Below, in pieces: positions 5,951 through 21,273 of a DNA stretch of 30,000 bases (position 1 is the stretch's first letter; every line of letters starts with the position of its first letter). Made by a program: the position numbers and the translations under genes. The notes beneath the pieces are model-generated. The model saw nothing but the letters and a program-made list of their open reading frames with translations. It searched no databases and was not told where the DNA came from. Source of the stretch: Halarcobacter sp. Lineage in GTDB: Bacteria; Campylobacterota; Campylobacteria; Campylobacterales; Arcobacteraceae. Location of the stretch: positions 299,357 to 329,356 of the forward strand of contig JAQYVX010000001.1 in NCBI GenBank assembly GCA_030145305.1, written 5' to 3'.

Positions 5951-5954
5951 AAGA

Positions 5955-6080: not shown

Positions 6081-6107
6081 CTCGCTCCAATAATTTTCAT
6101 GCTTTTA

Positions 6108-6141
6108 TATAAAGCTATATGTATTAACATATAGCTTTATA
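6108..6141. promoter_or_regulatory. Perfect 14-bp inverted repeat (hairpin or operator) between the hydratase gene and the small ORF
   Basis: TATAAAGCTATATG-tattaa-CATATAGCTTTATA. No U-run follows it on the minus strand. Confidence 0.4.
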
Positions 6142-6154
6142 ATTAATCTACTAG

Positions 6155-7006
6155 TTATTTATACTCTGCTAATGCAAAATTTAAATAAATTGTTGCTGGA
6201 TCATCTGCATTAATAACTCTAAAGTGAATAGAGTTATCATCCCATTTCCAAATTTGTGTTGTAACATTAACACCTGGTAATAGTGGTTTTGTAATTCTTG
6301 TTTTAAATCTAGTTAATCTCTCAGAATCACCATCTAATACAGAATTAATAATATGTCTACAAGCAACACCTGCTGTACTTACAGCATGTAAGATAGGTCT
6401 TTCATAACCAATTTCTGCTGCATATTCCCAATCAACATGTTGTGGATGATCATCTCCTGAAAGTCTGTAAACACAAGCTCTATCTTCAGAGATTTTTTCA
6501 GTGATTTCAAAATCTGGCTCTCTTTCAGGAATTTCTACGATATCTTTAGGTGCTTTTGGTCCATTCCAACCACCATCAAAAATACAACAATCTGTACTTT
6601 CATTAGTAAATAATAGTGTTCCATCTTCATCATAAGTTTCACCAAAGTGAACTGCTAAAGTTCCTTTACCTTCACCTCTGTCATATAAACCTTTTAATAA
6701 AACTTTTGTGCTTAATTTACCTTCAAGTTTTTTCATTGGATTAATCATTTTAATATCAAAACTCCAATGTAAAGAACCAGTATAATCATATCCCCAGTCA
6801 ATTGTTTTTGTAACTATTGACTCAACGATAGGACAAGCTGCATACGTAGGAAGCATTTTCATATCTTTTTCGTAAACATATTGTAAATCTGTTTTACCAT
6901 CATATGCTGCTCCACTACCTAGTGCAAATAAACTTAAAGATTTCCAATCATATTCTTTCTCAAACGGACCAAATGTTTGTCCTACCATTTCTGTTTTAAT
7001 TGCCAT
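6155..7006 (-). CDS. MaoC-like / hydratase-2 double hot-dog (R)-specific enoyl-CoA hydratase, in the position of caiD
   Basis: 283 aa. The hydratase-2 motif YRLSGDDHPQHVD lies in the C-terminal half (G184-H190 at 6437-6457). AAGGA RBS 7 nt upstream. Located 31 nt downstream of caiC. Confidence 0.75.
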   Translation of the reverse strand: MAIKTEMVGQTFGPFEKEYDWKSLSLFALGSGAAYDGKTDLQYVYEKDMKMLPTYAACPIVESIVTKTIDWGYDYTGSLHWSFDIKMINPMKKLEGKLSTKVLLKGLYDRGEGKGTLAVHFGETYDEDGTLLFTNESTDCCIFDGGWNGPKAPKDIVEIPEREPDFEITEKISEDRACVYRLSGDDHPQHVDWEYAAEIGYERPILHAVSTAGVACRHIINSVLDGDSERLTRFKTRITKPLLPGVNVTTQIWKWDDNSIHFRVINADDPATIYLNFALAEYK

Positions 7007-7037
7007 TTTTTATTCCTTTTTATATTTACTATTTTAT

Positions 7038-8612
7038 TTATTTATTTTTATTATCTTTTTCTCTAAGAAGATTTTTTCTTATCTTCCCCGTACTTGTTCT
7101 TGGTAAAGATTTACATATCTCAATAATAGAAGGTACTTTAAAGCAGGCTAAATGTTCAGAACAATATTCCAAAATCTGCTCTTCACTAAACTCTTCACCT
7201 TTTTTTATTACTACAAAAGCTTTAATTAATTCACTGCAAACTTTATCCGCAATGCCAATTACTCCAGCTTCAACTATTTTTGGATGTGCAGATAAAAAGA
7301 TTTCAAGCTCTTCACTTGAAACATTTTCACCAGCACTTTTAATCAAACTTGATTCACGGTCAACAAAATAAAAATACCCATCTTCATCTACATAAGCAAT
7401 ATCACCTGTATGAAGCCAACCATCAGCACTTAATACTTTTTTAGTTGCTTCAATATCATTATAATATTCTTTAAAAATAGTTTTTCCAGGTATCCCTTTA
7501 ACATAAAGTTCGCCTTGAGTATAAGGGCTTACTTCATTTCCTTGACAGTTAATAATTTTTGCTTCATATCCATCACCAACTTTTCCAATAGAAGGCCATC
7601 TACGTTCTTCTCCTGGTCTATCGCCAATTAATCCTACAATTGTTTCAGTCATACCATATGAAGTTAAAAGTCGAACATTAAATCGTTCAAGAAAAGCATC
7701 TTTTTCTTCATCTGAAATTGATAAATAATAAAATACTTCTCTTAAAGAATGTTCTTTTTCCCAAGATTTTGTTTCTTGCATCATTAAAGTGCATATAATC
7801 TTAGGAATACATTCAGTAATCGTTGCTTTATATTTACATACTTGCTTCCAAAACTTTCTCGCACTATATTTTTCAAGAAAAACAAAAGTTGCTCCTGAAA
7901 AAAAAGTAGGTAAAGTAGCTGTGCATTGAGAATCAATATGCCAAGCAGGCATAACTGTCAAATAAATATCATCTTCTTTAATTCTACCTTGCCAAGAAGT
8001 ATAATATCCTGCAAAAAGCATATTATAATGAGTAATTACAACTCCTTTTGGCAATGATGTCGTTCCAGATGTAAATAAAATCTCAACAGCATCTTCAACA
8101 TCTACTTCTACTATCTTATTTAAAGTTGAAGATTGTAATTTTAATTCATTATTGAAATTAATATATGTTTGGTGTTCAAAATTATCATCACGTGCAATTA
8201 AAATATTTTTAACTGAACTAAATCTTTCATTCTTTATTTTTTCATATACACTCAAAACATCATTTTCTATCACAACAAATTTTGGTTTACACTTATTAAC
8301 AATATAAGAACATTCTCGATACAAGTAATGTGCGTTAATAGGCACCATAATGGCGCCTATTTTAGCTAAACCAAACCAACTTATTAATAACTGTGGACTA
8401 TTATGAAGATGAATTGCTACTCTATCTCCTTTTTCAACGCCAAGAGAAAGAAATAAATTTGCAGCTTTATTAATTTCATTATTCAATTCTATATAATTAT
8501 ATTTATTAACTTTTCCATTAATATCTTCAAAAATTAATGCTGTTTTATCACTATAGATTTCCGCAAGAGAATCAAACATCTCTCTTAAGTTTTTATGCTT
8601 CATCTTATCCAT
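7038..8612 (-). CDS. caiC: Crotonobetaine/carnitine-CoA ligase (AMP-dependent synthetase)
   Basis: LFTSGTTSLPKGV AMP-binding motif, plus TSYGMTET, GWLHTGD and a C-terminal GKIRK. Stretches match remembered E. coli CaiC. The start was chosen at M8 because a GAAGGA RBS lies 7 nt upstream; the longest ORF begins at 8633. Confidence 0.85.
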   Translation of the reverse strand: MDKMKHKNLREMFDSLAEIYSDKTALIFEDINGKVNKYNYIELNNEINKAANLFLSLGVEKGDRVAIHLHNSPQLLISWFGLAKIGAIMVPINAHYLYRECSYIVNKCKPKFVVIENDVLSVYEKIKNERFSSVKNILIARDDNFEHQTYINFNNELKLQSSTLNKIVEVDVEDAVEILFTSGTTSLPKGVVITHYNMLFAGYYTSWQGRIKEDDIYLTVMPAWHIDSQCTATLPTFFSGATFVFLEKYSARKFWKQVCKYKATITECIPKIICTLMMQETKSWEKEHSLREVFYYLSISDEEKDAFLERFNVRLLTSYGMTETIVGLIGDRPGEERRWPSIGKVGDGYEAKIINCQGNEVSPYTQGELYVKGIPGKTIFKEYYNDIEATKKVLSADGWLHTGDIAYVDEDGYFYFVDRESSLIKSAGENVSSEELEIFLSAHPKIVEAGVIGIADKVCSELIKAFVVIKKGEEFSEEQILEYCSEHLACFKVPSIIEICKSLPRTSTGKIRKNLLREKDNKNK

Positions 8613-8640
8613 AGCTATTCCTTCTAAAGTCATTGTTAAC

Positions 8641-9864
8641 TTATGCCTTTTTCCCTACATTTACTATTTTACGCTCAGCAAAACCACTGATTTCTTCATC
8701 TGAATAACCAAGATCACTTAATATATCTGCTGTGTCCATACCGTATGATGGTGTTGCACGCCATACTTTACAAGGATTATTTTTGAACTTAGGCATAACA
8801 TTAGGACCTTTACATTTATCTCCTGACATTGTTTCCCATTCAGTAAATGAATCACGAGCTACATATTGAGGATTAGATTGAAGATCTTCTACATCTAATA
8901 CTTTAGCACCCGCAACTTTATAACTTGCAAGTAAAGCTAATGATTCTTCAATAGTTTTTTCTGCAAAGAATGCATCAAGTTTATCTTCTAAAATCTCACC
9001 ACAAGACATACTTCTAGCAATTAATTGTGTACCTTCTGGAATTTCTTCTGTACCAAGTAAATCTGAAATACCAAGTACTTCAAACATTGAACTAACTTGA
9101 GATCCTCCAACAATTTCAAAAACAATATATCCATCACTACATTTATAAAGTCCACAACCACAATATAAAGGATCTTTACCTTTTGTCATACGAGGACACA
9201 TTTCTCCACCATTTAAGTAATCCATCATATAATATTGACCAACTCTAAGCATAACTTCATACATAGCAACATCAATACTTTCACCAACACCTGTTTTCTC
9301 AGCACCATAAACTGCTGCTAAAACTGAACTAGTTACGGCAAATCCAGCCATATAATCAGCGGTATAAGGGAAGGCAGGCATAGGTTGATCTACATCACCA
9401 TTTTGCATTAAGTATCCACTAAATGCTTGTGCAATAGTATTATAAGCAGCTAAATTTGTATACTCAGCAGTACCATATTGTCCAAATCCAGATAAGTGAC
9501 CAATAACTAATTTTTTGTTACGTGCCCAAAGAAGTTCATCAGTAATTCCACGTTTAGCAAAAGCAGGACCTTTACTAGCTTCAATAAATACATCAGCATC
9601 TTCTATTAATTTTAAGAAAACTTCACGCCCTTCATCTGAAAAAACATTTAGTGATAATGCATGAAGATTTCTACGTGATAATTCTGGGTAATTTGGTTGA
9701 ACACGAATTGTATCTGCATAAGCTGAGTGCTCTATCCAAATTACTTCTGCTCCCCATTCTGCAAACATTTGTGCAGAGAATGGACCAGCAATTTCAATTG
9801 CTGAAAAAACAACTTTCATTCCAGCTAGAGGTCCAAATTTTGGTGTTTGTACTTTTTTTGTCAT
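8641..9864 (-). CDS. caiB: Family III CoA-transferase, L-carnitine/gamma-butyrobetainyl-CoA transferase
   Basis: [38 protein letters not shown] and [12 protein letters not shown] closely match remembered E. coli CaiB. Confidence 0.88.
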
Positions 9865-9917
9865 TTAAAATTCCTTTCTTATTCTTTGGAGTATGGAAAC
9901 CACACTCCTTAATTAAA

Positions 9918-11054
9918 TTATCTATATCTTTTTAAAACTTCTCTACCAATAGTTAAAATTTGCATTTCATCTGAACCACCTGATAGTCTATCTATTCTTA
10001 AATCTCTCCAGAAACGACCTACTCTATGTCCAGTTACACCAATTCCTCCAAGAACTTGCATTGATGAATCGATAACACTAAATGCTTCATTTGCACAAAA
10101 ATATTTACACATTGCAGAAGCTCCTGATGTTCCAATTCCTTGATCTGTTTTCCAAGCTGTTTCAAAAATCATATTTTTCATTGCATTTAACTTCATTTCC
10201 ATATGAGCAAATTTTTCTTGAATTAATTGAGTACGACCAATAGCTTCACCAAATTGAACACGTTGGTTAGCATATTTAGCAGCATCTTCAAATGCACATA
10301 AAGCTACACCATAGTTAGTACAAGCTACTAAGAAACGCTCATCATCAAACTCAGCTTTTACACGATTAAAACCTTGACCTTCTTTACCAAAAATATCTTT
10401 TTCTTCTAATTCAACATTATCAAAAACAATTTCACAACAACTATCCATTCTTAGACCAAGTTTATCAAGAGCAGTTAATTTAATACCAGGCTTAGACATA
10501 TCAACAAAGAATTCTGTAAATACAAGAGACTCAGCATCAGCATCTTTTGCCATAACAACTAAATATGGAGTATGTAAACTACTAGTAATAAAACATTTTT
10601 GTCCATTTAAATAAATTTTTCCATCTTTTCTTTTGTATGTTGATTTCATGCTTCCTACATCTGAACCAGCACTTGGTTCAGTAATAGCAGAGTTAAACAT
10701 TTGTTCACCTGTACCACGGAATTTAAAAATTTTATCTATTTGTTCTTGTGAACCATGTCTTAAGATTGTACTAAATCCAGGTAATTGATATAAAACATAC
10801 GTTGGCGCACCATGACGACCTAGTTCTGCCCAAATTGCAGTTAAAGTTACCATGCTTTCCGCCATACCACCATGCTCCTCAGGAAGAAGCATAGTATCAA
10901 TACCTAAATCAGCTAACTCTTTTACCCATCTAATTGGGTATTCATGTTTTTCATCACACTCTGCAAAATATAGTTCCCAATTTTCTCTTTCCATAAGGTC
11001 TCTTACACCTTCAACAAATAATTCTTGTTCATCACTTAATTTAAAATTTATCAT
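9918..11054 (-). CDS. caiA: Crotonobetainyl-CoA reductase (acyl-CoA dehydrogenase family flavoprotein)
   Basis: [54 protein letters not shown] and the terminal LKRYR closely match remembered E. coli CaiA. Confidence 0.88.
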
Positions 11055-11083
11055 TTTTTATATTTCCTTTTATTTTTTATCTA

Positions 11084-12601
11084 TTAATACCATTTGTTCT
11101 TTTTTGCATCTTTAAAGAAAGAATAAAGAACCAAGACATTAACAAAAATCAGTGGGAAACCACCGGCAATAATAGCAGTTTGAAGTGGTTTTAATCCTCC
11201 TAGTGCAAGTAAAGTAATACCAATAATACCTACAAGAACAGACCAACCAAGTCTTACCCATAATGGAGGCTCAGTATAACCATCAGCTTCTTTACAAGTT
11301 GACATTGCTAAAGTATATGAACAAGCATTGATCAAAGTAACTGTAGCAAGGAAACAAAGAATAAAGAATCCCCAGATTGTAATTGTAGATAAAGGTAATG
11401 CTGCCCATGCTTCAATAATAGCTCTTGGAACACCTTCATCTTTTACAATTTGAGGTATATTAATTAGATTTTGTTTCATAATATTAACTGTATTACTTCC
11501 AAGAATAGTCCACATAGACCAAGTAGTTGCAGTAAGACCAGCTACCATAACAAAACAAACTTCTCTAACTGTACGACCTCTTGAAATACGAGCTAAGAAG
11601 ATACACATTTGAATACCAAATGTAACCCACCATGCCCAATAGAAAACTGTCCAACCTTGAGGGAAACCACCATCACGGATAGCATCTGTATAGAAAAGCA
11701 TTCTAGAAAGACTATCTAACATAATCCCAACAGAATCTGTAAAATAATTTACTGTAAAAGTTGTTCCACCAATAATTAGTACCCATACTAACATGATAAT
11801 TGAAAGGTAACTTCTTACATCAGATGCCATTTTAATACCTTTTGTTAAACCAAAAGCAACACAAATAGCATTAAAAATAACCCAACAAGCAATAATTGCA
11901 CTATCAACTTGTAATGTACGTTCAATTCCAAATAACCACTCAATACATTCTGTAACAAGAGGAGTAGCTAAACCTAAACTTGTTCCCATTGCAAGAATAA
12001 GTGCAACAATATAGAAGTTATCAATTACAGTACCAAGCCATCCTTTAGAAAGCTTCTCTCCAATAGCCGCTTCAACACAACCACTAGGACGCATTACATT
12101 TATTTTTTTAACATAAATAAAATAACCAAAAGCAACAGTTAAAACAGCATATCCAGCCCATGGTAATGGACCCCAGTGGAATAAACTGTAAGCAACACCA
12201 AACTCTTGTGCTGCAGGAGAAAATGCCTCAATTGCAAATGGTGGATAAGCTATATAATAGTAAGCTTCAATAGTTCCCCAATAAAGAACAGCAGCAGATG
12301 TACAAGATGCGAACATCAAGAAAATCCAACTTCCCGTACTAAATTCTGGTTTTTCTTCACCAAGTGTATTATTTTTCATAGGACCAAAAGCTAGCCATGC
12401 CCAAATGATTCCAAAAATAACCATATACCACTCAAACAACCATCCCCAACTATTTGTTACATAACCAAATAATGAGTTAATAGCTGCATTTGCTGCATCT
12501 AAGTCTCTAACAACTAGGTAACCAAGAATTACCACGACAATAAGTGACGGGAAAAATATTTTAGGTTCAATACCTACTTTTTTCACTTCTTTCTCTTCCA
12601 C
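11084..12601 (-). CDS. caiT: BCCT-family L-carnitine/gamma-butyrobetaine antiporter
   Basis: [20 protein letters not shown] and [15 protein letters not shown] (BCCT signature) are present. The 505 aa length and long stretches match remembered E. coli CaiT. Confidence 0.9.
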
Positions 12602-12682
12602 AATAGACCTCCATCTAAAATTTTTTGTTTTTTATCTAATTCAATAAAAATCATTGTTTATAATAAATCATAAACATTTAGT

Positions 12683-12751
12683 AAATCACGATATTTTACA
12701 AATCGTGATTTTTACTACCGAAATCATACTCTCATTAGTTTTAATTGTCAA
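12683..12751 (-). promoter_or_regulatory. caiT promoter with two downstream operator copies
   Basis: On the minus strand: TTGACA (12746-12751), a 17-nt spacer, then TATGAT (12723-12728). Operators AATCGTGATT (12701-12710) and AATCACGATA (12684-12693) form the inverted repeat AAATCACGAT-N9-ATCGTGATTT. Confidence 0.6.
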
Positions 12752-12883: not shown

Positions 12884-12899
12884 TATAATCATGATTATA
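12884..12899 (+). promoter_or_regulatory. ribB upstream 16-bp perfect palindrome overlapping a TATAAT box
   Basis: TATAATCATGATTATA contains TATAAT (12884-12889) and the AATCATGATT core (12887-12896). It lies 56 nt upstream of the ribB ATG. Confidence 0.5.
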
Positions 12900-12954
12900 T
12901 TTTAACTCAGGATTAATATGTTATTATACTTAAATATTAATATTAGGAAGAAAA

Positions 12955-14013
12955 ATGAATTTACTTAGAAATAATGATAAGTCAATTGAGGCAATTGAAA
13001 GAGTATGCCAAGCAATTGAAGATGTTAGACAAGGTAAAATGGTTGTTATGGTTGATGATGAAGATAGAGAGAATGAGGGAGATTTAGTTTATGCTGCTTC
13101 TTTCTCAACTCCTGAAAAAGTTAATTTTATGGCTTCACATGCAAAAGGGCTTATTTGTGTAGCCCTTTCAAAAAAAATAGCTTCACGTTTGGAGCTTACT
13201 CCAATGGTTAAGAATAATGATTCTTCTTATGAAACAGCTTTTACAATTTCTGTTGATGCAAAAGATGCAGAAACAGGGATATCTGCTATTGAAAGAGATA
13301 TGACTATTAAAATCTTATCTGACAATAATTCAGAAGCTGCAGAATTAGTAAGACCAGGACATATTTTCCCTCTTATTGCAAAAGAAGGTGGAGCATTAGT
13401 AAGAACTGGTCATACAGAAGGATCTGTCGATTTATGTAAATTAGCTGGATTAGGTGAAGCTAGTGTTATTTGTGAAGTTATGAAAGAAGATGGAACAATG
13501 GCAAGAAGACCTGATCTTGATATTTTCTGTGAAAAGCATGAACTAAATATTGTTTATATCTCTGACATTGTTGAATATCGTATGATGAATGAGTCATTAA
13601 TTAATCTTGAAAAAGAATCAACTCAAGTATTTCTTGGTGCACAAGCAAAAAAATATGATTTTCGAGATCATTTAGATAATAATCACATTGTTTACACTTT
13701 TGGAGAGTTTAGTAATCGTGCTGCTGTAAAATTTCATTCTATTATTCCTGATAATGAACTACTAGCATCAACTGAAAAATATGATGAAATGATAAATAGT
13801 ATTAAATATTTACAAAAAAATAGTGGTATTTTGGTTTTCATGGATAGCAATACTAAAAATATGACTCAAATTAGAGAATATGGAATAGGAGCACAGCTTC
13901 TTAAATATTTAGGAATAGAAGAGATTGAGCTTCTTAGTAATAGTAAAACAATAGAACTTGTGGGAATTAGTGGTTTTGGGTTAAGTGTAACAAAATTAAT
14001 TAGTTTAAAATAA
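12955..14013 (+). CDS. ribB: 3,4-dihydroxy-2-butanone-4-phosphate synthase with a degenerate C-terminal GTP-cyclohydrolase-II-like domain
   Basis: DDEDRENEGDL, RPGHIFPL and RTGHTEGSVDL are DHBP synthase motifs. The C-terminal ~150 aa lacks the Cys triad seen in RibA. Confidence 0.9.
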   Translation: MNLLRNNDKSIEAIERVCQAIEDVRQGKMVVMVDDEDRENEGDLVYAASFSTPEKVNFMASHAKGLICVALSKKIASRLELTPMVKNNDSSYETAFTISVDAKDAETGISAIERDMTIKILSDNNSEAAELVRPGHIFPLIAKEGGALVRTGHTEGSVDLCKLAGLGEASVICEVMKEDGTMARRPDLDIFCEKHELNIVYISDIVEYRMMNESLINLEKESTQVFLGAQAKKYDFRDHLDNNHIVYTFGEFSNRAAVKFHSIIPDNELLASTEKYDEMINSIKYLQKNSGILVFMDSNTKNMTQIREYGIGAQLLKYLGIEEIELLSNSKTIELVGISGFGLSVTKLISLK

Positions 14014-14026
14014 TAATAGAACTAAG

Positions 14027-14063
14027 AAAAGCCAAGTATTTTTGAATACTTGGCTTTTTTTTT
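14027..14063. terminator. Bidirectional rho-independent terminator (ribB / porin)
   Basis: AAAA-GCCAAGTATT-tttg-AATACTTGGC-TTTTTTTTT forms a 10-bp stem flanked by A and T runs. Confidence 0.8.
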
Positions 14064-15201
14064 AGATAGAGAATGGAAAAGTTAGATTAACTCTTAATTC
14101 TTTTTCATCTTTATCTCTACCTGCATCATCATAAAGAACAGCAACATTTAAATCTTTAAATACTCCTGCATCAAATGTATAATCTGCTGTAACACTTGTA
14201 TATGAGTATTCTTTATCATCATAATCATCAAGAACATAATTCATACCAACATTTAGTGCAGGCGTTAATTTATAAGCTACACCAATTTTATATGCATCAC
14301 TATTTGCACCATATGTATCTGATAGAATTGGAGAACCTGTATATGCATAATCTGCACCATTTCCTAATCCTGCATGTACATATGCATCACCAGTTGTTGT
14401 ATAAGCTGCTAATAATGATAAATTACCTAAATCAAAAGTAGCTTTTAAACCAAATAAATCTGTGTCTTTTGAACCCTCTTTTTCACTATCATAATATTGT
14501 GAAGCAAGTCCAAATATTCCTTTTTTAAATGAAGCTTCTGCATATGTAACTTCCATAAGATCTTTTGCATCTAAATAAGCTAAAGTAAGATTTACATTTG
14601 GAATTGAAGAATTTTCTACTACTGCTGTATAAGCACCATCTACTAATTCACCTTGCCAAGTAAAGTCTCTTGTAAATTTACCAAAGTTACCATCTCCATC
14701 TGTACGATTTTGCATTTTTTGAACATATCCAATAGTTACTTTTGTATCAGGGATATCTGAATTAGTAATTAAAGCACCTTCAAAAGATTCTCTATTCATA
14801 CGTGAACCACTTCCATAAATAAGTGGTGTAGCAAAATACATTCGCCCAATTTGTGCTGTAGTTTTGCCAGCAGCATATGAAAGATAAAGTTCTGATAATT
14901 GAGAACCTGACCCATACATATCACTATTAAATACACTTTCAGCATCATCATCTGAGAAAGGTGAAGATGAAGATTGGAAAGTTGATTTTAAACCAAAACC
15001 ATAGAAACGTCCTGTTTCATAACTAAGATCTAAACCAAAATTCATAATATCAGCATCTACACCTTTATCACGTTGCCAATAATAAGCCTGAACTTTACCT
15101 TCTACCTTACCTTCTTTAAAGGCATCTGCCAAACTATCTGCACCAAATGCAGATGAACTTAAAGCAATAATTGCTGCTAGACTAAATTTAACTAATTTCA
15201 T
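14062..15201 (-). CDS. Outer-membrane beta-barrel porin (OprD-like / Campylobacterota porin family)
   Basis: Start taken at MKLVKFSLAAIIALSSSAFG|ADS, which gives a signal peptide and has an AAGGAG RBS 5 nt upstream. Sequence is rich in G/Y/D/S/T with alternating beta-strand patterns. The ORF-track start at 15228 lacks an RBS. Confidence 0.75.
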   Translation of the reverse strand: MKLVKFSLAAIIALSSSAFGADSLADAFKEGKVEGKVQAYYWQRDKGVDADIMNFGLDLSYETGRFYGFGLKSTFQSSSSPFSDDDAESVFNSDMYGSGSQLSELYLSYAAGKTTAQIGRMYFATPLIYGSGSRMNRESFEGALITNSDIPDTKVTIGYVQKMQNRTDGDGNFGKFTRDFTWQGELVDGAYTAVVENSSIPNVNLTLAYLDAKDLMEVTYAEASFKKGIFGLASQYYDSEKEGSKDTDLFGLKATFDLGNLSLLAAYTTTGDAYVHAGLGNGADYAYTGSPILSDTYGANSDAYKIGVAYKLTPALNVGMNYVLDDYDDKEYSYTSVTADYTFDAGVFKDLNVAVLYDDAGRDKDEKELRVNLTFPFSI

Positions 15202-15222
15202 AATATCTCCTTGAAAATTTAT

Positions 15223-15308
15223 AATCACGATTAATAAAACATAGCGATGATTTAAAAATCATGATTAATAAGTTCTGAATTGTACTGTAATGTTTAATCA
15301 ATTGTCAA
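15223..15308 (-). promoter_or_regulatory. Porin promoter with operator copies
   Basis: On the minus strand: TTGACA (15303-15308), an 18-nt spacer, then TACAAT (15279-15284). Operators are AATCATGATT (15257-15266), a degenerate copy (15243-15252) and AATCACGATT (15223-15232). Confidence 0.6.
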
Positions 15309-15544: not shown

Positions 15545-16135
15545 TTAACTATTTTTAGGAGTATAGTCCATTTCAAATCTTTTAGCATTTCTAGCAGGAG
15601 TTAATTCTTTTAATGGCTCACAAGATTTAAAATCTTTTAAACATCGTGTGGTTAAATCAATATACGATTGTGTACTTTCTCTTTTCCACTCAATTTCTTC
15701 TTCACGCAACTCTCTTTTTACTTTTGCTGGAATACCAAGGGCAAGATGATTATCAGGAATATTCATCATCCCAGGAACAAGAGAAGAAGCTCCAACAATG
15801 GAATTACAACCAACTACAGCCTTATCCATTATCACAGCACCCATTCCAACCATTGCGTTATTTTTTATATGACAACTATGTAAAATTGCACTATGTCCAA
15901 TATGACCGTTTTCTTCAATAATAGTATCTATTCCTGTATATCCATGTAAAATGCAACAATCTTGTATATTAACATTTTTTCCAATGAGAATACGTCCAAA
16001 ATCGCCTCTTATAGAACTATTTGGTCCTATATAAGAACCTTCTTCAATAATTACATCACCTATAATTACAGCACTTTCATGAACAAATGCTTTTTCGTTA
16101 ATAACAGGTTTAATACCATCAATTTCATAAATCAT
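15545..16135 (-). CDS. caiE: Carnitine operon protein CaiE (hexapeptide-repeat / gamma-carbonic-anhydrase-like)
   Basis: FVHESAVIIGDVII, IRGDFGRILIG, NIQDCCILHG and ENGHIGHSAILH are present, and the sequence is collinear with remembered E. coli CaiE. Length 196 aa. Confidence 0.85.
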   Translation of the reverse strand: MIYEIDGIKPVINEKAFVHESAVIIGDVIIEEGSYIGPNSSIRGDFGRILIGKNVNIQDCCILHGYTGIDTIIEENGHIGHSAILHSCHIKNNAMVGMGAVIMDKAVVGCNSIVGASSLVPGMMNIPDNHLALGIPAKVKRELREEEIEWKRESTQSYIDLTTRCLKDFKSCEPLKELTPARNAKRFEMDYTPKNS

Positions 16136-16173
16136 ATTTTACTCACTTCTTATTTTAATAGTTTATCTTTTGA

Positions 16174-16461
16174 TTAACCGTAACGATACTCAACACCAAA
16201 TGTTCCATTTGGATATTCCCATTTTTTTAAAATAGTTTTACCACATAAAATACGGCATGTTCCACATTCTAAGCAACCAGCATAATCAAACTTGAAATTT
16301 CCATTGTCATCTCTTTTGTATAAGCCAGCAGGACACGCTGCTTCTAATTTTTTGAATTCAATTAAATCTGGTTTATCAACTAACTCAATATGAGCTTCAC
16401 CTTCATCAACAAAAAATTTATTAACACCTAGTTTAACATCAACATTTACTGAATTTTTCAT
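16174..16461 (-). CDS. fixX: Ferredoxin-like protein FixX
   Basis: 95 aa with CPAGLY and CLECGTCRILC cysteine motifs. It overlaps the fixC stop by 4 nt. Confidence 0.88.
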   Translation of the reverse strand: MKNSVNVDVKLGVNKFFVDEGEAHIELVDKPDLIEFKKLEAACPAGLYKRDDNGNFKFDYAGCLECGTCRILCGKTILKKWEYPNGTFGVEYRYG

Positions 16462-17744
16462 ATCGATTTCACCCCTTTAAATGCATCTTTCATTAGATTT
16501 ATAAATCCAACTTTCTTTAGATATGGCATAACCGTTTTTCGTAATGGTTGGCTAGGTCCGTTTACAGTAAACATTCCTTTCATAATACCAGTTGCCATTT
16601 CTGGATAATCATTAAACATACGTTTATTATCTAAGAATTCTGGTAAATCTTTATATAATTTTAAGTCTTTCATTACAAAACTATCATCTAATTCTTTTGT
16701 ATAAGAAGATAAAGAGTTTTCACTAAAATCATTTTTTTCTTTTGCCGCAAGAATTGCATTAGCAGCTGCTTCACCTGAAGCAATAGCTAAATCCATACCA
16801 CGAACTGTATATCCAACATTAAGACAAAGACCTGCTGCGTCACCTACAAGAAGAACACCATTACCAACCATTTTAGGTAACATGTTATATCCTCCTTCTG
16901 GAACTACGTGAGCAGAATACTCAACAGATTCTCCTCCTTTTACTAAAGGCTTAACACTTGGATGATTTTTAAAATCTTCTAACATTTGAGGAACACTTTT
17001 TCCAGCTTTCTCAATATTATGAAGTCCAAATACAACACCTAATGAAATAGTGTCTTCATTAGTATAAATAAATCCTCCACCCATATATCCATCAGAAGGT
17101 GTACCCGCAAAAAGCCAAGCTGTACCTTCATCATCAGTACAAGCGAAACGATCATTTACTTGTTCTTTTGTTAATTGTATAACTTCTTTAACTCCAACCG
17201 CGCAATTATGTGGAGTTACTTTTGAAACCATACCTAATTTTTCACCTAAGATAGAATTTGCACCATCAGCAAGGACAACGACATCTGCCTCCATCTCTTC
17301 ACCACCAGCAACAACTCCACAGACTTTTCCATTACGAGTTATAACATCGTCTACACGAACACCAGGAATAAGTCCAACACCGGCTTCTTCTGCCTTGTCC
17401 CCTAACCATTGATCAAATTTAGTTCTTAATACTGTATATGAACGATTTGATTTTTCATCATCCTTAGGAGCAGCATAATCCATAGTAACACTACTTTTCT
17501 CTTCCATAAAAGAAATCTTTTCATGAACAATCGCACGTTCAATAGGAGCCTCTTCTGCAAAATTTGGAAAAATTTTTTCAATACTATGAGCATAAAGCCT
17601 ACCACCAGTCATATTCTTAGACCCTGCAAAGTTTCCTCTTTCAATAATTAGAGTTTCTAAACCTGCTTTTGCAAGAATATAACCAGTAATACAACCAGCT
17701 ATTCCTCCACCTACAATAATTGCATCAAATTTTTCTTCAGCCAT
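16458..17744 (-). CDS. fixC: FAD-dependent ETF-quinone-type oxidoreductase FixC
   Basis: FDAIIVGGGIAGC dinucleotide-binding fold. 428 aa. Sits in the fixB-fixC-fixX order. Confidence 0.88.
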   Translation of the reverse strand: MAEEKFDAIIVGGGIAGCITGYILAKAGLETLIIERGNFAGSKNMTGGRLYAHSIEKIFPNFAEEAPIERAIVHEKISFMEEKSSVTMDYAAPKDDEKSNRSYTVLRTKFDQWLGDKAEEAGVGLIPGVRVDDVITRNGKVCGVVAGGEEMEADVVVLADGANSILGEKLGMVSKVTPHNCAVGVKEVIQLTKEQVNDRFACTDDEGTAWLFAGTPSDGYMGGGFIYTNEDTISLGVVFGLHNIEKAGKSVPQMLEDFKNHPSVKPLVKGGESVEYSAHVVPEGGYNMLPKMVGNGVLLVGDAAGLCLNVGYTVRGMDLAIASGEAAANAILAAKEKNDFSENSLSSYTKELDDSFVMKDLKLYKDLPEFLDNKRMFNDYPEMATGIMKGMFTVNGPSQPLRKTVMPYLKKVGFINLMKDAFKGVKSI

Positions 17745-17772
17745 AATTCTACCTTATATAAAAATTTATATA

Positions 17773-18714
17773 TTACTGTTTAAGGGCATTAATTACAGCA
17801 GGTAGAATAGTATAAAGATCCCCTACTATCCCATAATCAGCATAGTCAAAAATTGGTGCATTTTTATCTTTATTCACAGCTACAATTATCTGTGAATCTT
17901 TAGCACCTACCATATGTTGGATTTGTCCAGAAATACCAACTGCAAAATAGATTTCAGGTTTAGCCATAACACTTGAAATACCAATGTAACGTTCATGTTC
18001 CATCCATTTTTCACCTTCTGCTATAGGTCTTGAACATCCTAATTCTGCATCGAATAAAGAACAAAGTTCTTCTGCAATTTTAATATCTTCTTCTTTTGCA
18101 ATACCACGTCCAATTGCAACAATACGTTTTGCTTTATTTAAATCAACACTACTTCCTTCTTTAGGAAGTCTATTAATACATTTAACACCACTATTGTTTT
18201 CAACAAAATCTACAACTTTAGCTTCACCAGATTTAGAAGTATCAATCTCTTTTCCTTCATATAATCCACCTGATATTACAGCAATAGAAACATTTGTTTT
18301 TATTAATTCTTCACTAATTGCTAATCCACCATATGCTAAATGTTTACATTTAACACCAGCTTCATCAATCTCAATATTAGATACTTCTGTTACAACACCA
18401 GCGTTTAATTCAGCACCAAGTAATGAAGCTAATGCTTTACATCTTTTTGTTCCTGGCATTAATACTAATGATTTACCTTCACTTGCTGCAATAACTTTTG
18501 CAATAGTTTTAGAATAACTTTCTATGATTTTACTAGAATCATATTCTCCTAGATTATAAACTTCATTTGCTCCATAAGCATATGCATCTGACACTTGTTC
18601 AGAACCAATAACTAATGCAGAAACATTTTCTCCTAATTCTAAACCTCCAGCTATTACTTCTGGTAAACGTGCAGAGGTATCACTAAAAACCCATATATTT
18701 GATAACTTACTCAT
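17773..18714 (-). CDS. fixB: Electron transfer flavoprotein alpha subunit FixB
   Basis: The C-terminal FAD-binding region reads PEIYFAVGISGQIQHMVG...IVAVNKDKNAPIF. Length 313 aa. Confidence 0.88.
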   Translation of the reverse strand: MSKLSNIWVFSDTSARLPEVIAGGLELGENVSALVIGSEQVSDAYAYGANEVYNLGEYDSSKIIESYSKTIAKVIAASEGKSLVLMPGTKRCKALASLLGAELNAGVVTEVSNIEIDEAGVKCKHLAYGGLAISEELIKTNVSIAVISGGLYEGKEIDTSKSGEAKVVDFVENNSGVKCINRLPKEGSSVDLNKAKRIVAIGRGIAKEEDIKIAEELCSLFDAELGCSRPIAEGEKWMEHERYIGISSVMAKPEIYFAVGISGQIQHMVGAKDSQIIVAVNKDKNAPIFDYADYGIVGDLYTILPAVINALKQ

Positions 18715-18729
18715 TCTATCCTCCGACTA

Positions 18730-19488
18730 TTAAATAATTTTTCGTAAATGACTAACAAACTCAGAAATTTTATCATCTGAGTCACCTTCGATAATAATAT
18801 GTTGTCGTTCTTTTTTCTTAGGTGCTTTAATATCAACAAGCTCCACTAAATCTTGATTATCTTCTTCACTACTCATAGTATTAACAGGTTTTTTACCTGC
18901 TCCAATAATAGCTTTCATTCCAGGAATTGAAGGTTGATTAATATCAGCAGAAACAGAAATTACAGCTGGTAAAGAAACTTCTAAAACTTCAATTTCGTTT
19001 TCTAAAGCTCTTTCTACTACTAATTTATCTTCTTCAACAGATACAATTTTAGATACTGAGTTAACAACTGATACATTTAAAATAGCTCCAAGTCTAACAC
19101 CTGTTTGCTGTGCATAAATATCACCAGAACCGTCACCACAAAGAATTAAATCAAAACCAACATTTTTTGCAGTTTCAGCAAAAATTTTTGCTGTTTGATG
19201 TGGTAAAATATTTTCATATTTTTCATCACTTACAATAACTAATTCATCTGGTCCACGAGATAGCATATCTTTTCGTGATTTTACATTATCAAGAGATTTC
19301 CCCCCAATACTTACCGCACAAATAGTAGATTCTGCATTATTTTTTTTGATTTCAACTGCTGCTTCAATAGCATTAAGGTCAAATTGACTTATTTTTGGTG
19401 ATGCCTTACTAGTATCAAGACTACCATCATTATTAACTTTAATATCTTGATCTTCGGGTACTAACTTACACCCAACTAAAATTTTCAT
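18730..19488 (-). CDS. fixA: Electron transfer flavoprotein beta subunit FixA
   Basis: ETF-beta features are present: MKILVGCKLVPE, NAIEAAVEIK and LILCGDGSGD. Length 252 aa. Confidence 0.88.
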   Translation of the reverse strand: MKILVGCKLVPEDQDIKVNNDGSLDTSKASPKISQFDLNAIEAAVEIKKNNAESTICAVSIGGKSLDNVKSRKDMLSRGPDELVIVSDEKYENILPHQTAKIFAETAKNVGFDLILCGDGSGDIYAQQTGVRLGAILNVSVVNSVSKIVSVEEDKLVVERALENEIEVLEVSLPAVISVSADINQPSIPGMKAIIGAGKKPVNTMSSEEDNQDLVELVDIKAPKKKERQHIIIEGDSDDKISEFVSHLRKII

Positions 19489-19542
19489 TTAGATCTCCTT
19501 CCAATTCTTAATTTTTACTTTCATAATCTAATCAGATTTAAA

Positions 19543-19596
19543 AAATCATGATTTATTTATAATCAGAATATTACACTAATCATGATTACTTGTCAA
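19543..19596 (-). promoter_or_regulatory. fixA promoter with one operator inside the spacer and one downstream
   Basis: On the minus strand: TTGACA (19591-19596), a 17-nt spacer, then TAATAT (19568-19573). TAATCATGATTA (19577-19588) lies within the spacer and AAATCATGATTT (19543-19554) lies downstream. Confidence 0.6.
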
Positions 19597-19660: not shown

Positions 19661-20539
19661 TTATCTATATCTTTTTAATATCGTATGGTACATTGCATTA
19701 GCAAATATTTTATTAGTTGTATAACTAAAATGCCATTCATCCCAAAAATAATACTCACTTTCATCACCAGAAGAAGTCATAATTTCAGGGTAAGTACTTT
19801 GATACTCTTTTGTTAATACTTTTAAATCATATTTATTAGGATTTTGTACAATATCATTACTTACAGAAGTATGATCAAATTCGATTATTGATACATTTAA
19901 TTCATTTTGCAACTCTTTTAAATTTCTTGGAAGATTTTCATTAACAATTTTTACAAACTCTTTTGCAGAATTTATTCTATTCATAGTATTTTCATAAGGA
20001 ACAAGAGATAAATCACTACAATTTACAACAAAAAACTTTTTGCCACCAATTTTTGCTAGTTTTTTTATAGCATTCTTTATATTATCAATTACAGTATAAG
20101 CTAACTCTTCAATACTTCCTTGTTTGTTGAAATCCATATATGCAAAATAGTCATTTTCAGAAGCAAAAATAAAATAAAGAGTATTTGAATCTATTTCATT
20201 TGTAGATAAATTCTTTTCAAATCTATCAATTTGTCCTAGCACTCCTGTATCACCTAAATAATCCATCCAGTCTGTATAATTTTCTTTACCAGAAGTTGCA
20301 CCACCTGTTGCATAACTTACTAAGTTTACATCAAGTCTTTTTGCTAATAATTCAACAGCTGCATACCCATTTGAATATCTTCCATTCCAATATAATCCTT
20401 CTGTTGGTTTTAAAAACGCATCTTTTGGACTATTTTCTTTAGATAAAATTGTTGAAGATATTCTTCTTGCTTCTCCATTATCTGAATAACTATTACCAAA
20501 TGCAATTACTTGACTTATTTTATTTTCATTTTTTGACAT
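19661..20539 (-). CDS. SGNH/GDSL-family esterase/lipase with no signal peptide
   Basis: Block I is AFGNSYSDNG, block II-like is NGRYSNG, and block V is FWDEWH (D-x-x-H). AAGGAAA RBS. Located 19 nt downstream of ribA. Confidence 0.75.
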   Translation of the reverse strand: MSKNENKISQVIAFGNSYSDNGEARRISSTILSKENSPKDAFLKPTEGLYWNGRYSNGYAAVELLAKRLDVNLVSYATGGATSGKENYTDWMDYLGDTGVLGQIDRFEKNLSTNEIDSNTLYFIFASENDYFAYMDFNKQGSIEELAYTVIDNIKNAIKKLAKIGGKKFFVVNCSDLSLVPYENTMNRINSAKEFVKIVNENLPRNLKELQNELNVSIIEFDHTSVSNDIVQNPNKYDLKVLTKEYQSTYPEIMTSSGDESEYYFWDEWHFSYTTNKIFANAMYHTILKRYR

Positions 20540-20558: not shown

Positions 20559-21164
20559 TTAAAGAAGATGACCCATTTGTTCTTTTTTTGTTTTAAGATA
20601 TTCAGCATTATATTTATTACTTGAGATAATTATGGGTAGTCTTTTAATAATATCAACACCCTTTATTGAGTTTATTTTCTTAGGATTATTAGTAAGTAAA
20701 TTTATTTTTTTGATATTATAATATGAAAGTATAAACTCGACAACTTGGTATGAGCGTTCATCTGCTTTAAATCCTAATTGATGATTAGCTTGAATTGTGT
20801 CATATCCTTGATCTTGCAAAGCATAAGCATTAACTTTATTAAACAATCCTATATCTCTGCCCTCTTGTCTTAAATAAATTACCATGCCTTTCTCTTCAAA
20901 TATAGTTTTCAAAGAATAATCAAGTTGTTCACCACAATCACATTTTAACGAGCCAAAAGCATCTCCTGTTAAACATTCACTATGAATACGAATTGTTGGT
21001 ATTTCAGTCATCTCTTTTGAAGATACAACCAAATGTTCTTTGTAACCTTCTTGAAAAGATTGAATATTAAATGTTCCAAAAGATGTAGGTAAGTTTGCAA
21101 TATTTGAAACTTTTATTTCTGCGTTTTGTTTTATTGTGCGTATAGTCATTTTATCAACTCTCAT
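20559..21164 (-). CDS. ribA: GTP cyclohydrolase II
   Basis: IHSECLTGDAFGSLKCDCGEQL zinc-site motif and YLRQEGRDIGL. An alternative start exists at M6 (21149). Confidence 0.9.
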   Translation of the reverse strand: MRVDKMTIRTIKQNAEIKVSNIANLPTSFGTFNIQSFQEGYKEHLVVSSKEMTEIPTIRIHSECLTGDAFGSLKCDCGEQLDYSLKTIFEEKGMVIYLRQEGRDIGLFNKVNAYALQDQGYDTIQANHQLGFKADERSYQVVEFILSYYNIKKINLLTNNPKKINSIKGVDIIKRLPIIISSNKYNAEYLKTKKEQMGHLL

Positions 21165-21244: not shown

Positions 21245-21273
21245 ATTATAAAATAATCATGATTATTTGTCAA
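21245..21273 (-). promoter_or_regulatory. ribA promoter with an 18-bp perfect palindrome filling the spacer
   Basis: On the minus strand: TTGACA (21268-21273), a 17-nt spacer, then TATAAT (21245-21250). AAATAATCATGATTATTT spans 21251-21268. A half-site-like ATCACGTAT lies just downstream (about 21237-21245). Confidence 0.6.

What the first reader, a model, noticed from the sequence alone, without database searches (positions are those of the whole stretch)
12884..14013. Riboflavin genes ribB and ribA are embedded in the locus under the same operator, with no FMN riboswitch
ribB (12955-14013) diverges from caiT, and ribA (20559-21164) lies just upstream of the fix operon. Both carry the longest versions of the palindrome on their promoters (16 bp over the ribB -10; 18 bp filling the ribA spacer). 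The 350-nt ribB leader region is extremely AT-rich. It has none of the G/C-rich conserved helices of an RFN/FMN element. The pathway next door is flavin-heavy: CaiA, FixA/B and FixC are all FAD proteins. A plausible reading is demand-coupled flavin provisioning. The alternative is an iron-linked explanation, since ribBA has been tied to ferric reduction and iron acquisition in Helicobacter and Campylobacter. The motif shares ATAATCAT with the classical Fur box, but its symmetry (ATAATC-AT-GATTAT) is not the 7-1-7 Fur arrangement.
Basis: partly seen in the sequence, partly recalled or inferred. Interest (0 to 1): 0.6.

Follow-up and report, generated by a model that had tools for sequence, protein, structure and literature searches.

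The report
Riboflavin genes wired into carnitine regulon
In this Halarcobacter-like bacterium the two entry genes of vitamin B2 synthesis (ribA, ribB) sit inside a carnitine-respiration gene island and carry the same repressor-binding palindrome as the island's flavoprotein genes, so flavin supply is probably switched on together with the enzymes that need it.

Summary
ribB (12955-14013) and ribA (20559-21164) are real. A perfect 16-bp palindrome lies upstream of ribB, and a perfect 18-bp palindrome fills the spacer of a 12/12 consensus ribA promoter. The core AATCRYGATT occurs 7 times in the window against 0.26 expected, always in promoter regions of the tetR/cai/porin/fix/rib island.

In independent loci the motif tracks homologues of the island's TetR-family regulator about 150-fold. 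This includes Campylobacter, Desulfobaculum and a Firmicute carnitine-dehydrogenase locus, so it is most likely that regulator's operator and not a Fur box.

rib genes with operators recur inside the island in at least six diverged lineages, twice with ribH. They are absent from TetR-cai-fix loci of Campylobacter and Desulfobaculum.

There is no FMN riboswitch. None was found in 14 related Campylobacterota rib loci either, so that absence is ordinary for the lineage. The AT-richness is also normal intergenic composition.

Best reading: pathway-specific, repressor-mediated co-induction of flavin synthesis with FAD-dependent carnitine respiration, analogous to lux-rib operons. Binding, the inducer and the physiological effect are inferred. 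Whether these are extra rib copies could not be tested. I rate it a new variant of a known kind, of moderate interest.

The parts
3479..4198 (-). TetR-family regulator gene, candidate repressor of the island
   Evidence: Pfam TetR_N 33.1 bits. Only weak similarity to BetI: 32 bits against a cutoff of 201. Homologues at 47-100% identity co-occur with the operator in many loci.
4273..4290 (.). Operator upstream of tetR (ATATAATCAAGATTATAT), candidate autoregulatory site
   Evidence: 13.8 bits. An equivalent site lies upstream of TetR homologues in L082, L083, L089, L090, L092, L093, L095, L097, L099 and L102.
4343..12601 (-). SSS transporter, MaoC-type hydratase, caiC, caiB, caiA, caiT operon
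   Evidence: NCBIfam: CaiT 843.7 bits (cutoff 541), CaiA 694 (540), CaiB 661 (413), CaiC 790.7 (651). MaoC domains by Pfam.
12679..12751 (-). caiT promoter (TTGACA 12751-12746, TATGAT 12728-12723; 11/12) followed by two operators 17 bp apart (12679-12698, 12696-12715)
   Evidence: 12.7 and 17.6 bits.
12884..12899 (.). ribB-proximal operator, perfect 16-bp palindrome TATAATCATGATTATA
   Evidence: 17.3 bits. The ATCATGAT core is invariant in the aligned ribB upstream regions of five lineages.
12904..12927 (+). Weak second box (AACTCAGGATTA, 12904-12915) and putative extended -10 (TGtTATTAT, 12919-12927) of ribB
   Evidence: Read. TCAnGAT and G-TA--AT are conserved in the window, L001, L003, L099 and L102. 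The promoter assignment is an inference.
12955..14013 (+). ribB (DHBP synthase with a degenerate, cysteine-free GTP cyclohydrolase II-like C-terminal domain)
14027..14058 (.). Hairpin terminator between convergent ribB and the porin gene
   Evidence: 14-pair stem, called on the minus strand; on the plus strand a T-run follows the hairpin.
14062..15308 (-). OprD-family porin gene with promoter (TTGACA 15308-15303, TACAAT 15284-15279) and two operators 34 bp apart (15252-15271, 15218-15237) downstream of the -10
   Evidence: 17.2 and 18.6 bits.
15545..19488 (-). fixA, fixB, fixC, fixX, caiE operon (electron-transfer flavoproteins)
   Evidence: FixA 360.8 bits (cutoff 219), FixC 614 (610). FixB, FixX and CaiE are best hits but below the equivalog cutoffs.
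19539..19596 (-). fixA promoter: TTGACA 19596-19591, operator in the spacer (19573-19592), TAATAT 19573-19568, second operator 34 bp downstream (19539-19558)
   Evidence: Same design in L001 and L099.
19661..20539 (-). GDSL esterase gene downstream of ribA, with no terminator predicted between them
   Evidence: Non-homologous alpha/beta-hydrolase esterases sit next to ribA in L001, L082 and L096.
20559..21164 (-). ribA (GTP cyclohydrolase II)
21245..21273 (-). ribA promoter, TTGACA-17-TATAAT (12/12), with the perfect 18-bp palindrome 21251-21268 filling the spacer
   Evidence: 20.4 bits, the best site in the window. The same -35/operator/-10 design is seen upstream of the esterase-ribA pair in L001 and of ribA in L099; an operator also lies upstream of ribA in L102.

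Best explanation
ribA and ribB belong to the regulon of the island's TetR-family repressor. The repressor (3479-4198) is proposed to bind 16-18-bp palindromes (consensus AATAATCrYGATTATT). These lie within or next to the core promoters of tetR, the cai operon, ribB, the porin gene, the fix-caiE operon and the ribA-esterase unit.

Without its ligand it would occlude these promoters. The ligand is most likely carnitine or a pathway intermediate. When the ligand is present, all units would be derepressed together.

RibA and RibB catalyse the two entry steps of riboflavin synthesis (GTP and ribulose-5-phosphate branches). Co-induction would therefore raise flavin output just when FAD apoproteins (CaiA, FixAB, FixC) are made in bulk.

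Shown: gene identities, sites, promoter geometry, conservation, and co-occurrence of the motif with the TetR family.
Inferred: physical binding, the identity of the inducer, and that the purpose is flavin provisioning.
For: - The motif is non-random and confined to island promoters: 7 against 0.26 expected. The PWM hits at 12 bits or more in the window are all in island promoter regions except one at 27108 inside gyrA.
- Classic repressor geometry. The operator fills the -35/-10 spacer at PribA (12/12 consensus) and PfixA, and lies just downstream of the -10 at PcaiT and Pporin. Tandem sites are spaced 17 or 34 bp.
- In loci not used to build the PWM, there are 33 sites of 15 bits or more in 238 kb of TetR-bearing DNA, against 1 in 1.08 Mb elsewhere. 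That one is next to a TetR gene fragment in L096.
- Sites occur in or beside TetR homologue loci in Campylobacter sp. AP024713 and Desulfobaculum CP090009 (cai/fix loci). They also occur in a Firmicute contig where the TetR is divergent from a BKACE gene, a 3-hydroxyacyl-CoA-dehydrogenase gene and an SSS transporter gene. This ties the regulator to carnitine loci of two different pathways.
- rib genes with operators recur inside the island:
  - window/L081;
  - L001 (ribB; esterase-ribA-tetR);
  - L003 (ribB-ribH);
  - L082 and L096 (esterase-ribA);
  - L099 (ribB; ribA-fixABCX);
  - L102 (ribB-ribH; ribA-GDSL-fix).
- ribA changes position and partners but never leaves the island. ribB keeps its operators in L001 even though caiT is not its neighbour there.
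- A phylogenetic footprint of two boxes plus an extended -10 is conserved upstream of ribB.
- The pathway is flavin-rich.
- Precedent: in the lux-rib operon, rib genes are co-expressed with the FMN-consuming luciferase (PMC6279958).
Against: - There is no experimental binding or expression data.
- The copy number of ribA/ribB in the source genome is unknown. If they are the only copies, tight repression without carnitine would starve the cell, so regulation would have to be leaky or supplemented by other promoters.
- In two related MAGs only one ribB was detected, although that scan would pick up only about 65% of close homologues.
- TetR-cai-fix loci in Campylobacter and Desulfobaculum work without embedded rib genes, so the coupling is not required for the pathway.
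- The ribB promoter assignment is uncertain.
- NJ trees do not separate island and non-island rib copies cleanly.
Confidence: 0.6

Rival explanations
1. Housekeeping genes by accident of position. ribA and ribB are the ordinary, essentially constitutive riboflavin genes. The cai/fix island assembled around them, and the nearby palindromes control only the neighbouring cai, porin, esterase and fix genes.
For: RibB of the window falls in the same broad clade as the ribA-ribB operons of other Halarcobacter genomes, with no clean island clade. Only one ribB was detected in the L001 and L003 genomes. pan, tRNA and other core genes flank the island.
Against: The best operator in the window fills the spacer of the promoter directly upstream of ribA, the first gene of its unit. 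The ribB-proximal boxes are conserved in five lineages and persist in L001, where caiT is not adjacent. ribA is found in four different arrangements, always inside the island. Halarcobacter relatives without the island keep ribA-ribB as an operon without the motif.
Confidence: 0.12
2. Flavins for export or for a non-cytoplasmic use. The co-induced rib genes supply free flavin as an electron shuttle or as a cofactor for envelope redox proteins, rather than FAD for CaiA/FixABC.
For: In relatives the same RibB clade sits as ribA-ribB(-ribH) directly downstream of cytochrome c3-like and NapC/NirT-type cytochromes. A FAD-binding flavoprotein or a porin-like gene lies there too, next to reductive dehalogenase genes in Sulfurospirillum CP021416. 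A porin gene is under the same operator in the window.
Against: No cytochrome, flavin exporter or extracellular reductase gene is in the island. All flavin-dependent products in the regulon are cytoplasmic or membrane-associated FAD enzymes. The porin is of the OprD substrate-uptake type.
Confidence: 0.1
3. Iron control. The palindrome is a Fur-type box and the rib genes respond to iron limitation, as reported for ribBA of Helicobacter pylori and for riboflavin synthesis in Campylobacter jejuni.
For: The motif shares ATAATCAT with the classical Fur box. The iron-riboflavin link in H. pylori and C. jejuni is documented (PMC6041382).
Against: The best matches to the 19-bp Fur consensus in the two rib upstream regions have 6-7 mismatches, no better than shuffles. 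The symmetry is 6-2-6 (ATAATC-AT-GATTAT), not 7-1-7. The motif follows a TetR family across Campylobacterota, Desulfovibrionales and Firmicutes. It is absent from ribA-ribB operons of relatives. No iron-uptake gene is in the regulon.
Confidence: 0.03

Closest known systems
lux-rib operons of Photobacterium (luxCDAB(F)EG-ribEBHA)
   Same: Riboflavin biosynthesis genes are recruited into, and co-expressed with, a gene set whose products consume flavin. The rationale is cofactor supply on demand (PMC6279958).
   Different: There the rib genes are simply co-transcribed at the end of the lux operon. Here ribB is a separate transcription unit and ribA heads or joins its own unit, and the coupling is through a shared repressor operator. 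The consumer is an FAD-dependent carnitine/ETF respiration system, not luciferase. Only the entry enzymes (RibA, RibB, sometimes RibH) are recruited.
Escherichia coli caiTABCDE / fixABCX carnitine system
   Same: Same core enzymes and transporter (CaiT, CaiA, CaiB, CaiC, CaiE-like, FixABCX), arranged as separately transcribed cai and fix units.
   Different: E. coli uses the activator CaiF (PMC12083890 abstract) and carries no rib genes. Here the locus has a TetR-family regulator with palindromic operators, a MaoC-type hydratase in place of crotonase-type CaiD, an SSS transporter, an OprD porin, an esterase and the rib genes.
FMN riboswitch (RFN element, Rfam RF00050) control of ribB and rib operons
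   Same: Both would adjust expression of riboflavin entry enzymes.
   Different: No FMN riboswitch is present, and none was found in 14 related loci. The signal proposed here is the substrate of a consumer pathway sensed by a protein, not the flavin pool sensed by RNA: feed-forward rather than feedback.
Fur/iron-regulated ribBA of Helicobacter pylori and riboflavin-linked ferric reduction in Campylobacter jejuni
   Same: Same phylum and the same RibBA-type protein architecture. In both cases the regulator is a protein rather than a riboswitch (PMC6041382).
   Different: No Fur box above chance. The operator belongs to a TetR family linked to carnitine loci.
BetI, the choline-responsive TetR-family repressor of bet genes
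   Same: A TetR-family local repressor of a quaternary-amine pathway, and the best (weak) NCBIfam match of the island regulator.
   Different: It scores 32 bits against a cutoff of 201, so it is not a BetI orthologue. The target genes and the operator are different.

Membership tests
FMN riboswitch (Rfam RF00050) | Covariance-model match at or above the gathering score in the 5' region of a rib gene | tested here: not met
   No hit in the whole window. No hit at E<=10 in 12550-13050 or 21100-21450. Upstream RNAs fold no better than shuffles: z = -0.35 and +0.42.
Fur box | Match to the 19-bp consensus GATAATGATAATCATTATC (or 7-1-7 TGATAATnATTATCA) better than chance at the regulated promoter | tested here: not met
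   The best matches have 6-7 mismatches of 19. A fraction of 0.45-0.95 of shuffles do as well.
RibB (3,4-dihydroxy-2-butanone-4-phosphate synthase) | Score above the curated cutoff of the family model | tested here: met
   NF006804 544.1 bits (cutoff 432), TIGR00506 248.2 (177.45), Pfam DHBP_synthase 271 bits.
Bifunctional RibBA (active GTP cyclohydrolase II domain) | Zn-binding Cys triad (C-x10-C-x-C) and a full-length GCHII domain | tested here: not met
   Pfam GTP_cyclohydro2 matches only residues 302-348. There is no cysteine after residue 192.
RibA (GTP cyclohydrolase II) | Score above the curated cutoff and presence of the Cys triad | tested here: met
   TIGR00505 243.7 bits (cutoff 205.85) and NF001591 260.6 (148). 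C64, C75 and C77 are present.
TetR-family repressor with palindromic operator | N-terminal TetR HTH domain | tested here: met
   Pfam TetR_N 33.1 bits, cutoff 24.
TetR-family repressor with palindromic operator | Operator co-occurs with the regulator gene, including upstream of the regulator itself | tested here: met
   About 150-fold enrichment in independent TetR-bearing loci. Sites lie upstream of the tetR gene in the window and in many loci.
TetR-family repressor with palindromic operator | Physical binding to the operator and release by a ligand | not testable with these tools
   Needs EMSA or footprinting with purified protein, with and without carnitine-related ligands.
BetI (choline-binding repressor) | Equivalog-level score | tested here: not met
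   TIGR03384 32.1 bits against a cutoff of 201.3.
cai/fix carnitine respiration locus | CaiT, CaiA, CaiB, CaiC and FixABCX orthologues present | tested here: met
   CaiT 843.7 bits (cutoff 541), CaiA 694 (540), CaiB 661 (413), CaiC 790.7 (651), FixA 360.8 (219), FixC 614 (610). FixB, FixX and CaiE are best hits below the equivalog cutoffs. No crotonase-type CaiD is present; a MaoC-type hydratase takes its place.
lux-rib-type recruitment of rib genes to a flavin-consuming pathway | rib genes co-expressed with the consumer genes | tested here: inconclusive
   A shared operator and, for ribA, no predicted terminator before the esterase and fix genes. Co-expression itself was not measured.
lux-rib-type recruitment of rib genes to a flavin-consuming pathway | The recruited rib genes are additional to a housekeeping set | not testable with these tools
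Exact-protein look-ups found no record.

The most novel reading that the evidence does not exclude
In Campylobacterota, which lack the FMN riboswitch, the entry enzymes of riboflavin synthesis are distributed as accessory modules. Each module is wired to a particular flavin-hungry respiratory island. One is the carnitine/ETF island described here, wired through a cross-phylum carnitine-sensing TetR repressor. Another is the cytochrome/flavoprotein and organohalide-respiration neighbourhood of ribA-ribB-ribH in Sulfurospirillum and Halarcobacter. Flavin supply would then be governed feed-forward by respiratory substrates rather than feedback by the flavin pool. In some genomes the island copies may even be the only ribA/ribB.
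Probability: 0.25. Interest if true: 0.7.

Novelty: new variant of a known kind. Interest (0 to 1): 0.5.

Why it matters
Cells must match cofactor supply to apoprotein synthesis. For flavins, the well-described bacterial controls are the FMN riboswitch (feedback) and iron/Fur.

This locus offers a clean, conserved and directly testable example of a third logic. A substrate-sensing repressor of a catabolic/respiratory pathway also gates the two committed steps of riboflavin synthesis.

It also defines, by comparative genomics, an uncharacterised TetR-family regulator and its operator. These are associated with carnitine loci in Campylobacterota, Desulfovibrionales and Firmicutes. That is relevant to microbial carnitine to gamma-butyrobetaine conversion and usable as a biosensor part.

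If the rib copies prove to be accessory, it adds to the evidence that duplicated rib genes serve specific purposes rather than being redundant.

Tried and rejected
- FMN riboswitch or any other Rfam family in the window, in both rib upstream regions and in 14 related loci: nothing relevant.
- Alternative structured leader: the folds are no better than shuffles.
- Fur box: not above chance.
- Locating the source genome to count rib copies. Exact look-ups of RibB and of the identical TetR cluster found no record. Cluster names only say 'Halarcobacter sp.' MAG. Copy number stays open.
- Phylogeny of RibA and RibB to separate island paralogues from housekeeping copies: the NJ trees interleave them and are inconclusive.
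- Literature search for carnitine plus riboflavin genes, a TetR regulator of carnitine loci, carnitine in Arcobacter or Campylobacter, and riboflavin genes in the Sulfurospirillum organohalide region: nothing relevant found.
- PDB sequence search with the TetR: only generic HTH matches, E >= 1e-4.
- A possible second, operator-independent extended -10 promoter (TGcTATAAT) between the operator and the ribA ATG. I considered it as a source of basal expression, but it is not evidently conserved in L099 and I did not rely on it.
Full report
**What is in the window.** The 30-kb window has 29.6% GC. Protein clusters identical or nearly identical to its proteins are labelled 'Halarcobacter sp.' MAG. 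It carries a compact island. From left to right:

- tetR (3479-4198, minus strand)
- an SSS transporter, a MaoC-type hydratase, caiC, caiB, caiA and caiT (4343-12601, minus)
- ribB (12955-14013, plus)
- an OprD-family porin (14062-15228, minus)
- caiE, fixX, fixC, fixB and fixA (15545-19488, minus)
- a GDSL esterase (19661-20539, minus)
- ribA (20559-21164, minus)

The island is flanked by panD and a metallo-beta-lactamase-fold gene on the left. On the right are panE, two tRNA-Asn genes, hemE, asd and gyrA.

**Gene identities.** They are solid.
- CaiT, CaiA, CaiB, CaiC, FixA and FixC all exceed their NCBIfam cutoffs.
- The ribB product scores 544 bits on PRK09314 (cutoff 432). Its C-terminal GTP-cyclohydrolase-II-like part matches Pfam only over residues 302-348 and has no cysteine after residue 192. 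It therefore lacks the zinc site and should act as DHBP synthase only.
- The ribA product passes TIGR00505 and keeps the C-x10-C-x-C triad.

**Checking the observation.** The two palindromes exist exactly as described.
- TATAATCATGATTATA (12884-12899) is a perfect 16-mer, 56 bp upstream of the ribB ATG.
- AAATAATCATGATTATTT (21251-21268) is a perfect 18-mer. It fills the 17-bp spacer of a 12/12 consensus promoter, TTGACA-17-TATAAT, upstream of ribA.
- The 10-bp core AATCRYGATT occurs seven times against 0.26 expected, and none of 100 shuffles reaches seven.
- A position weight matrix built from the sites finds ten hits of 12 bits or more in the window. Nine lie in the six promoter regions of the island and one is inside gyrA, probably by chance.

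**Promoter geometry.** It is that of a repressor.
- At PribA and PfixA the operator sits in the -35/-10 spacer.
- At PcaiT and Pporin one or two operators lie just downstream of the -10.
- At PtetR and PribB the palindrome itself contains TATAAT.
- Tandem sites are spaced 17 or 34 bp.

**No riboswitch.** No FMN riboswitch is present at gathering score anywhere in the window. None appears even at E<=10 in either rib upstream region. The upstream RNAs fold no better than shuffled sequence.

Three details of the finding need correcting.
- The '350-nt leader' is the divergent caiT-ribB intergenic region, not a leader.
- Its 17.8% GC is ordinary for intergenic DNA here (20% overall).
- An esterase gene separates ribA from fixA.

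**Who binds the palindrome.** Loci holding homologues of the island's TetR protein were retrieved from metagenome contigs and public assemblies, and RibB loci from the genome collection. In loci not used to train the matrix there are 33 sites of 15 bits or more in 238 kb of TetR-bearing DNA. Elsewhere there is one in 1.08 Mb, and that one lies next to a TetR gene fragment in L096.

Sites lie upstream of the tetR gene itself in many loci. They also lie in the cai/fix promoter regions of Campylobacter sp. AP024713 and of Desulfobaculum bizertense CP090009.

In a sporulating Firmicute contig (L092) a 48%-identical TetR is divergent from four genes. These are a beta-keto-acid cleavage enzyme, a 3-hydroxyacyl-CoA-dehydrogenase-type enzyme, an ADP-forming CoA ligase and an SSS transporter. 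The first two are the enzyme types of the carnitine dehydrogenase route. The same palindrome lies between the TetR gene and this set.

The motif therefore follows this TetR family across three phyla and two different carnitine pathways. That makes the TetR the likely binder and a carnitine-related compound the likely ligand. Neither has been shown physically.

The protein is not BetI: it scores 32 bits against a cutoff of 201. It has no close solved structure. I found no paper describing a TetR regulator of carnitine loci.

**Are the rib genes really part of it?** Island-bearing relatives answer this.

| Locus | rib genes in the island |
|---|---|
| L081 (97-100% identical to the window) | same layout as the window (left half, tetR to ribB, recovered) |
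| L001 | ribB next to porin-caiE-fixXCBA; an esterase-ribA-tetR unit behind a TTGACA/operator/TATAAT promoter |
| L003 | caiT, then ribB-ribH, then porin |
| L082, L096 | esterase-ribA behind operators |
| L099 | caiT, ribB, porin, fixXCBA, ribA; operators before ribB, fixA and ribA |
| L102 | as the window, plus ribH |

RibB identities among these are only 72-79%, so they are diverged lineages. An alignment of the five ribB upstream regions shows a footprint in otherwise diverged AT-rich DNA. It has an invariant ATCATGAT box, a second TCAnGAT box 17-18 bp downstream, and then a TGnTAwwAT extended -10.

In L001 these boxes persist although caiT is not next to ribB. They therefore serve ribB and not caiT.

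ribA occupies four different positions but never leaves the island. It is always next to an esterase or to fix genes.

By contrast, Halarcobacter relatives without the island keep ribA-ribB as an operon without the motif. TetR-cai-fix loci of Campylobacter and Desulfobaculum have no rib genes within 10 kb. The recruitment is thus specific to an Arcobacter/Halarcobacter-like group and is maintained there.

**What is ordinary.** The missing FMN riboswitch is not a feature of this locus. None was detected in 14 related loci. These include ribA-ribB operons of Halarcobacter, housekeeping ribB of Sulfurospirillum and ribB of Campylobacter concisus.

The Fur alternative fails. The best Fur-box matches at the rib promoters have 6-7 mismatches of 19, no better than shuffles. 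The distribution of the motif also follows the TetR and not the rib genes.

**Most likely mechanism.** The TetR dimer occupies the palindromes and blocks RNA polymerase at all six promoters. A carnitine-derived ligand releases it. The cai, fix, porin, esterase, ribA and ribB units are then induced together.

RibA and RibB open the two branches of riboflavin synthesis, so their co-induction should raise flux to FMN/FAD as CaiA, FixAB and FixC are made. This is feed-forward cofactor provisioning.

The closest precedent is the lux-rib operon of Photobacterium, where rib genes are co-transcribed with the FMN-consuming luciferase genes (PMC6279958). Here the coupling is through a shared operator, the consumer is different and only entry enzymes are recruited.

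I put about 0.85 on shared operator control of the rib genes, about 0.8 on the TetR being the binder and about 0.6 on the whole statement including purpose.

**Main uncertainty.** I could not establish whether these are extra rib copies. Only 30 kb of the genome is available, and exact-protein look-ups found no record. The one genome-collection scan found a single ribB in the genomes of L001 and L003. Its peptide seeds would catch only about 65% of close homologues, and both are MAGs.

Duplicated ribA-ribB sets do occur in this group. One Halarcobacter chromosome has two operons 19 kb apart. In dehalogenating Sulfurospirillum, a ribA-ribB-ribH set lies beside cytochromes, a flavoprotein and reductive dehalogenase genes. 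Its RibB is 76% identical to the window's. RibB of other Sulfurospirillum genomes (L008-L020) forms a separate clade, so I take this set to be a second copy, although the same genome was not checked for the other one.

If the island copies are the only ones, repression must be leaky or bypassed. NJ trees do not resolve the question.

**Verdict.** Co-regulation and the TetR link are well supported by comparative genomics. The riboswitch absence and the AT-richness are unremarkable. The iron reading is rejected. The physiological purpose is still inference.

I found no published description of rib genes in carnitine loci. I rate it a new variant of a known kind and of moderate interest. It is directly testable with EMSA, reporters and carnitine-induction transcriptomics.

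Noticed in passing
L101 (Sulfurospirillum CP021416.1) 6399-14562; L100; L002, L004-L007: The RibB clade closest to the window's occurs as ribA-ribB(-ribH) directly downstream of cytochrome c3-like and NapC/NirT-type cytochrome genes. A FAD_binding_2 flavoprotein gene (or a porin-like ORF) lies there too. In Sulfurospirillum the set sits immediately upstream of two reductive dehalogenase (rdhA/rdhB) pairs. No TetR palindrome is present. This suggests accessory rib sets attached to other respiratory modules.
   Followed up: partly
L002 and L004 (Halarcobacter MAG chromosome OY781089.1, about 3.09-3.12 Mb): Two ribA-ribB operons lie about 19 kb apart on one chromosome, each preceded by cytochrome c3/NapC-like genes. 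rib gene duplication therefore occurs in this genus.
   Followed up: partly
L092 3796-10711 (termite-gut-type Firmicute contig): A 48%-identical TetR homologue is divergent from BKACE, 3-hydroxyacyl-CoA-dehydrogenase-type, ADP-forming CoA ligase and SSS transporter genes. The same palindrome (CATAATCATGATTATT at 9782) lies between them. The regulator/operator pair is shared by two different carnitine pathways in different phyla.
   Followed up: partly
window 19661-20539; L001 17908-18873; L082 10818-11771; L096 282-1253; L102 17587-18468: ribA is almost always adjacent to an esterase gene, but of two unrelated folds: GDSL in the window and L102, alpha/beta-hydrolase (Abhydrolase_3) in L001, L082 and L096. 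This may be an acylcarnitine esterase function recruited twice.
   Followed up: no
window 4343-12601 versus L003 2-9738: SSS, MaoC, caiB, caiA and caiT are 88-95% identical between the window and L003 (caiC is 73%). The adjacent ribB, porin and caiE are only 69-75% identical. This suggests recent lateral exchange or recombination of most of the cai operon alone.
   Followed up: no
window 6155-7006; L003 1122-1973 and 3631-4482; L097 5023-8084: A MaoC-type (hot-dog) hydratase replaces the crotonase-type CaiD of E. coli in these cai operons. Some relatives carry duplicated caiB plus MaoC pairs.
   Followed up: no
L001 7410-9839; L003 13568-15082: A dCache-type methyl-accepting chemotaxis protein gene is part of the island. 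In L001 it is preceded by two operators (7412, 7531), which suggests chemotaxis co-regulated with the pathway.
   Followed up: no
window 3033-3416 (panD), 21389-22345 (panE); L001 5953-6762 (panB), 19819-20202 (panD); L082 7669-8034 (panD): Pantothenate (CoA precursor) biosynthesis genes flank, or in L082 lie inside, this CoA-dependent island. The SSS transporter's best named (sub-threshold) match is the pantothenate symporter PanF. This may be a second cofactor link or plain synteny.
   Followed up: no
window 22416-22490 and 22526-22600: Two tandem tRNA-Asn(GTT) genes with identical Rfam scores lie 1.2 kb beyond the ribA end of the island.
   Followed up: no
window 27108-27123: A 14.1-bit match to the operator matrix (ATTAATCTTGATTTAT) lies inside the gyrA coding sequence. 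It is probably a chance hit.
   Followed up: no
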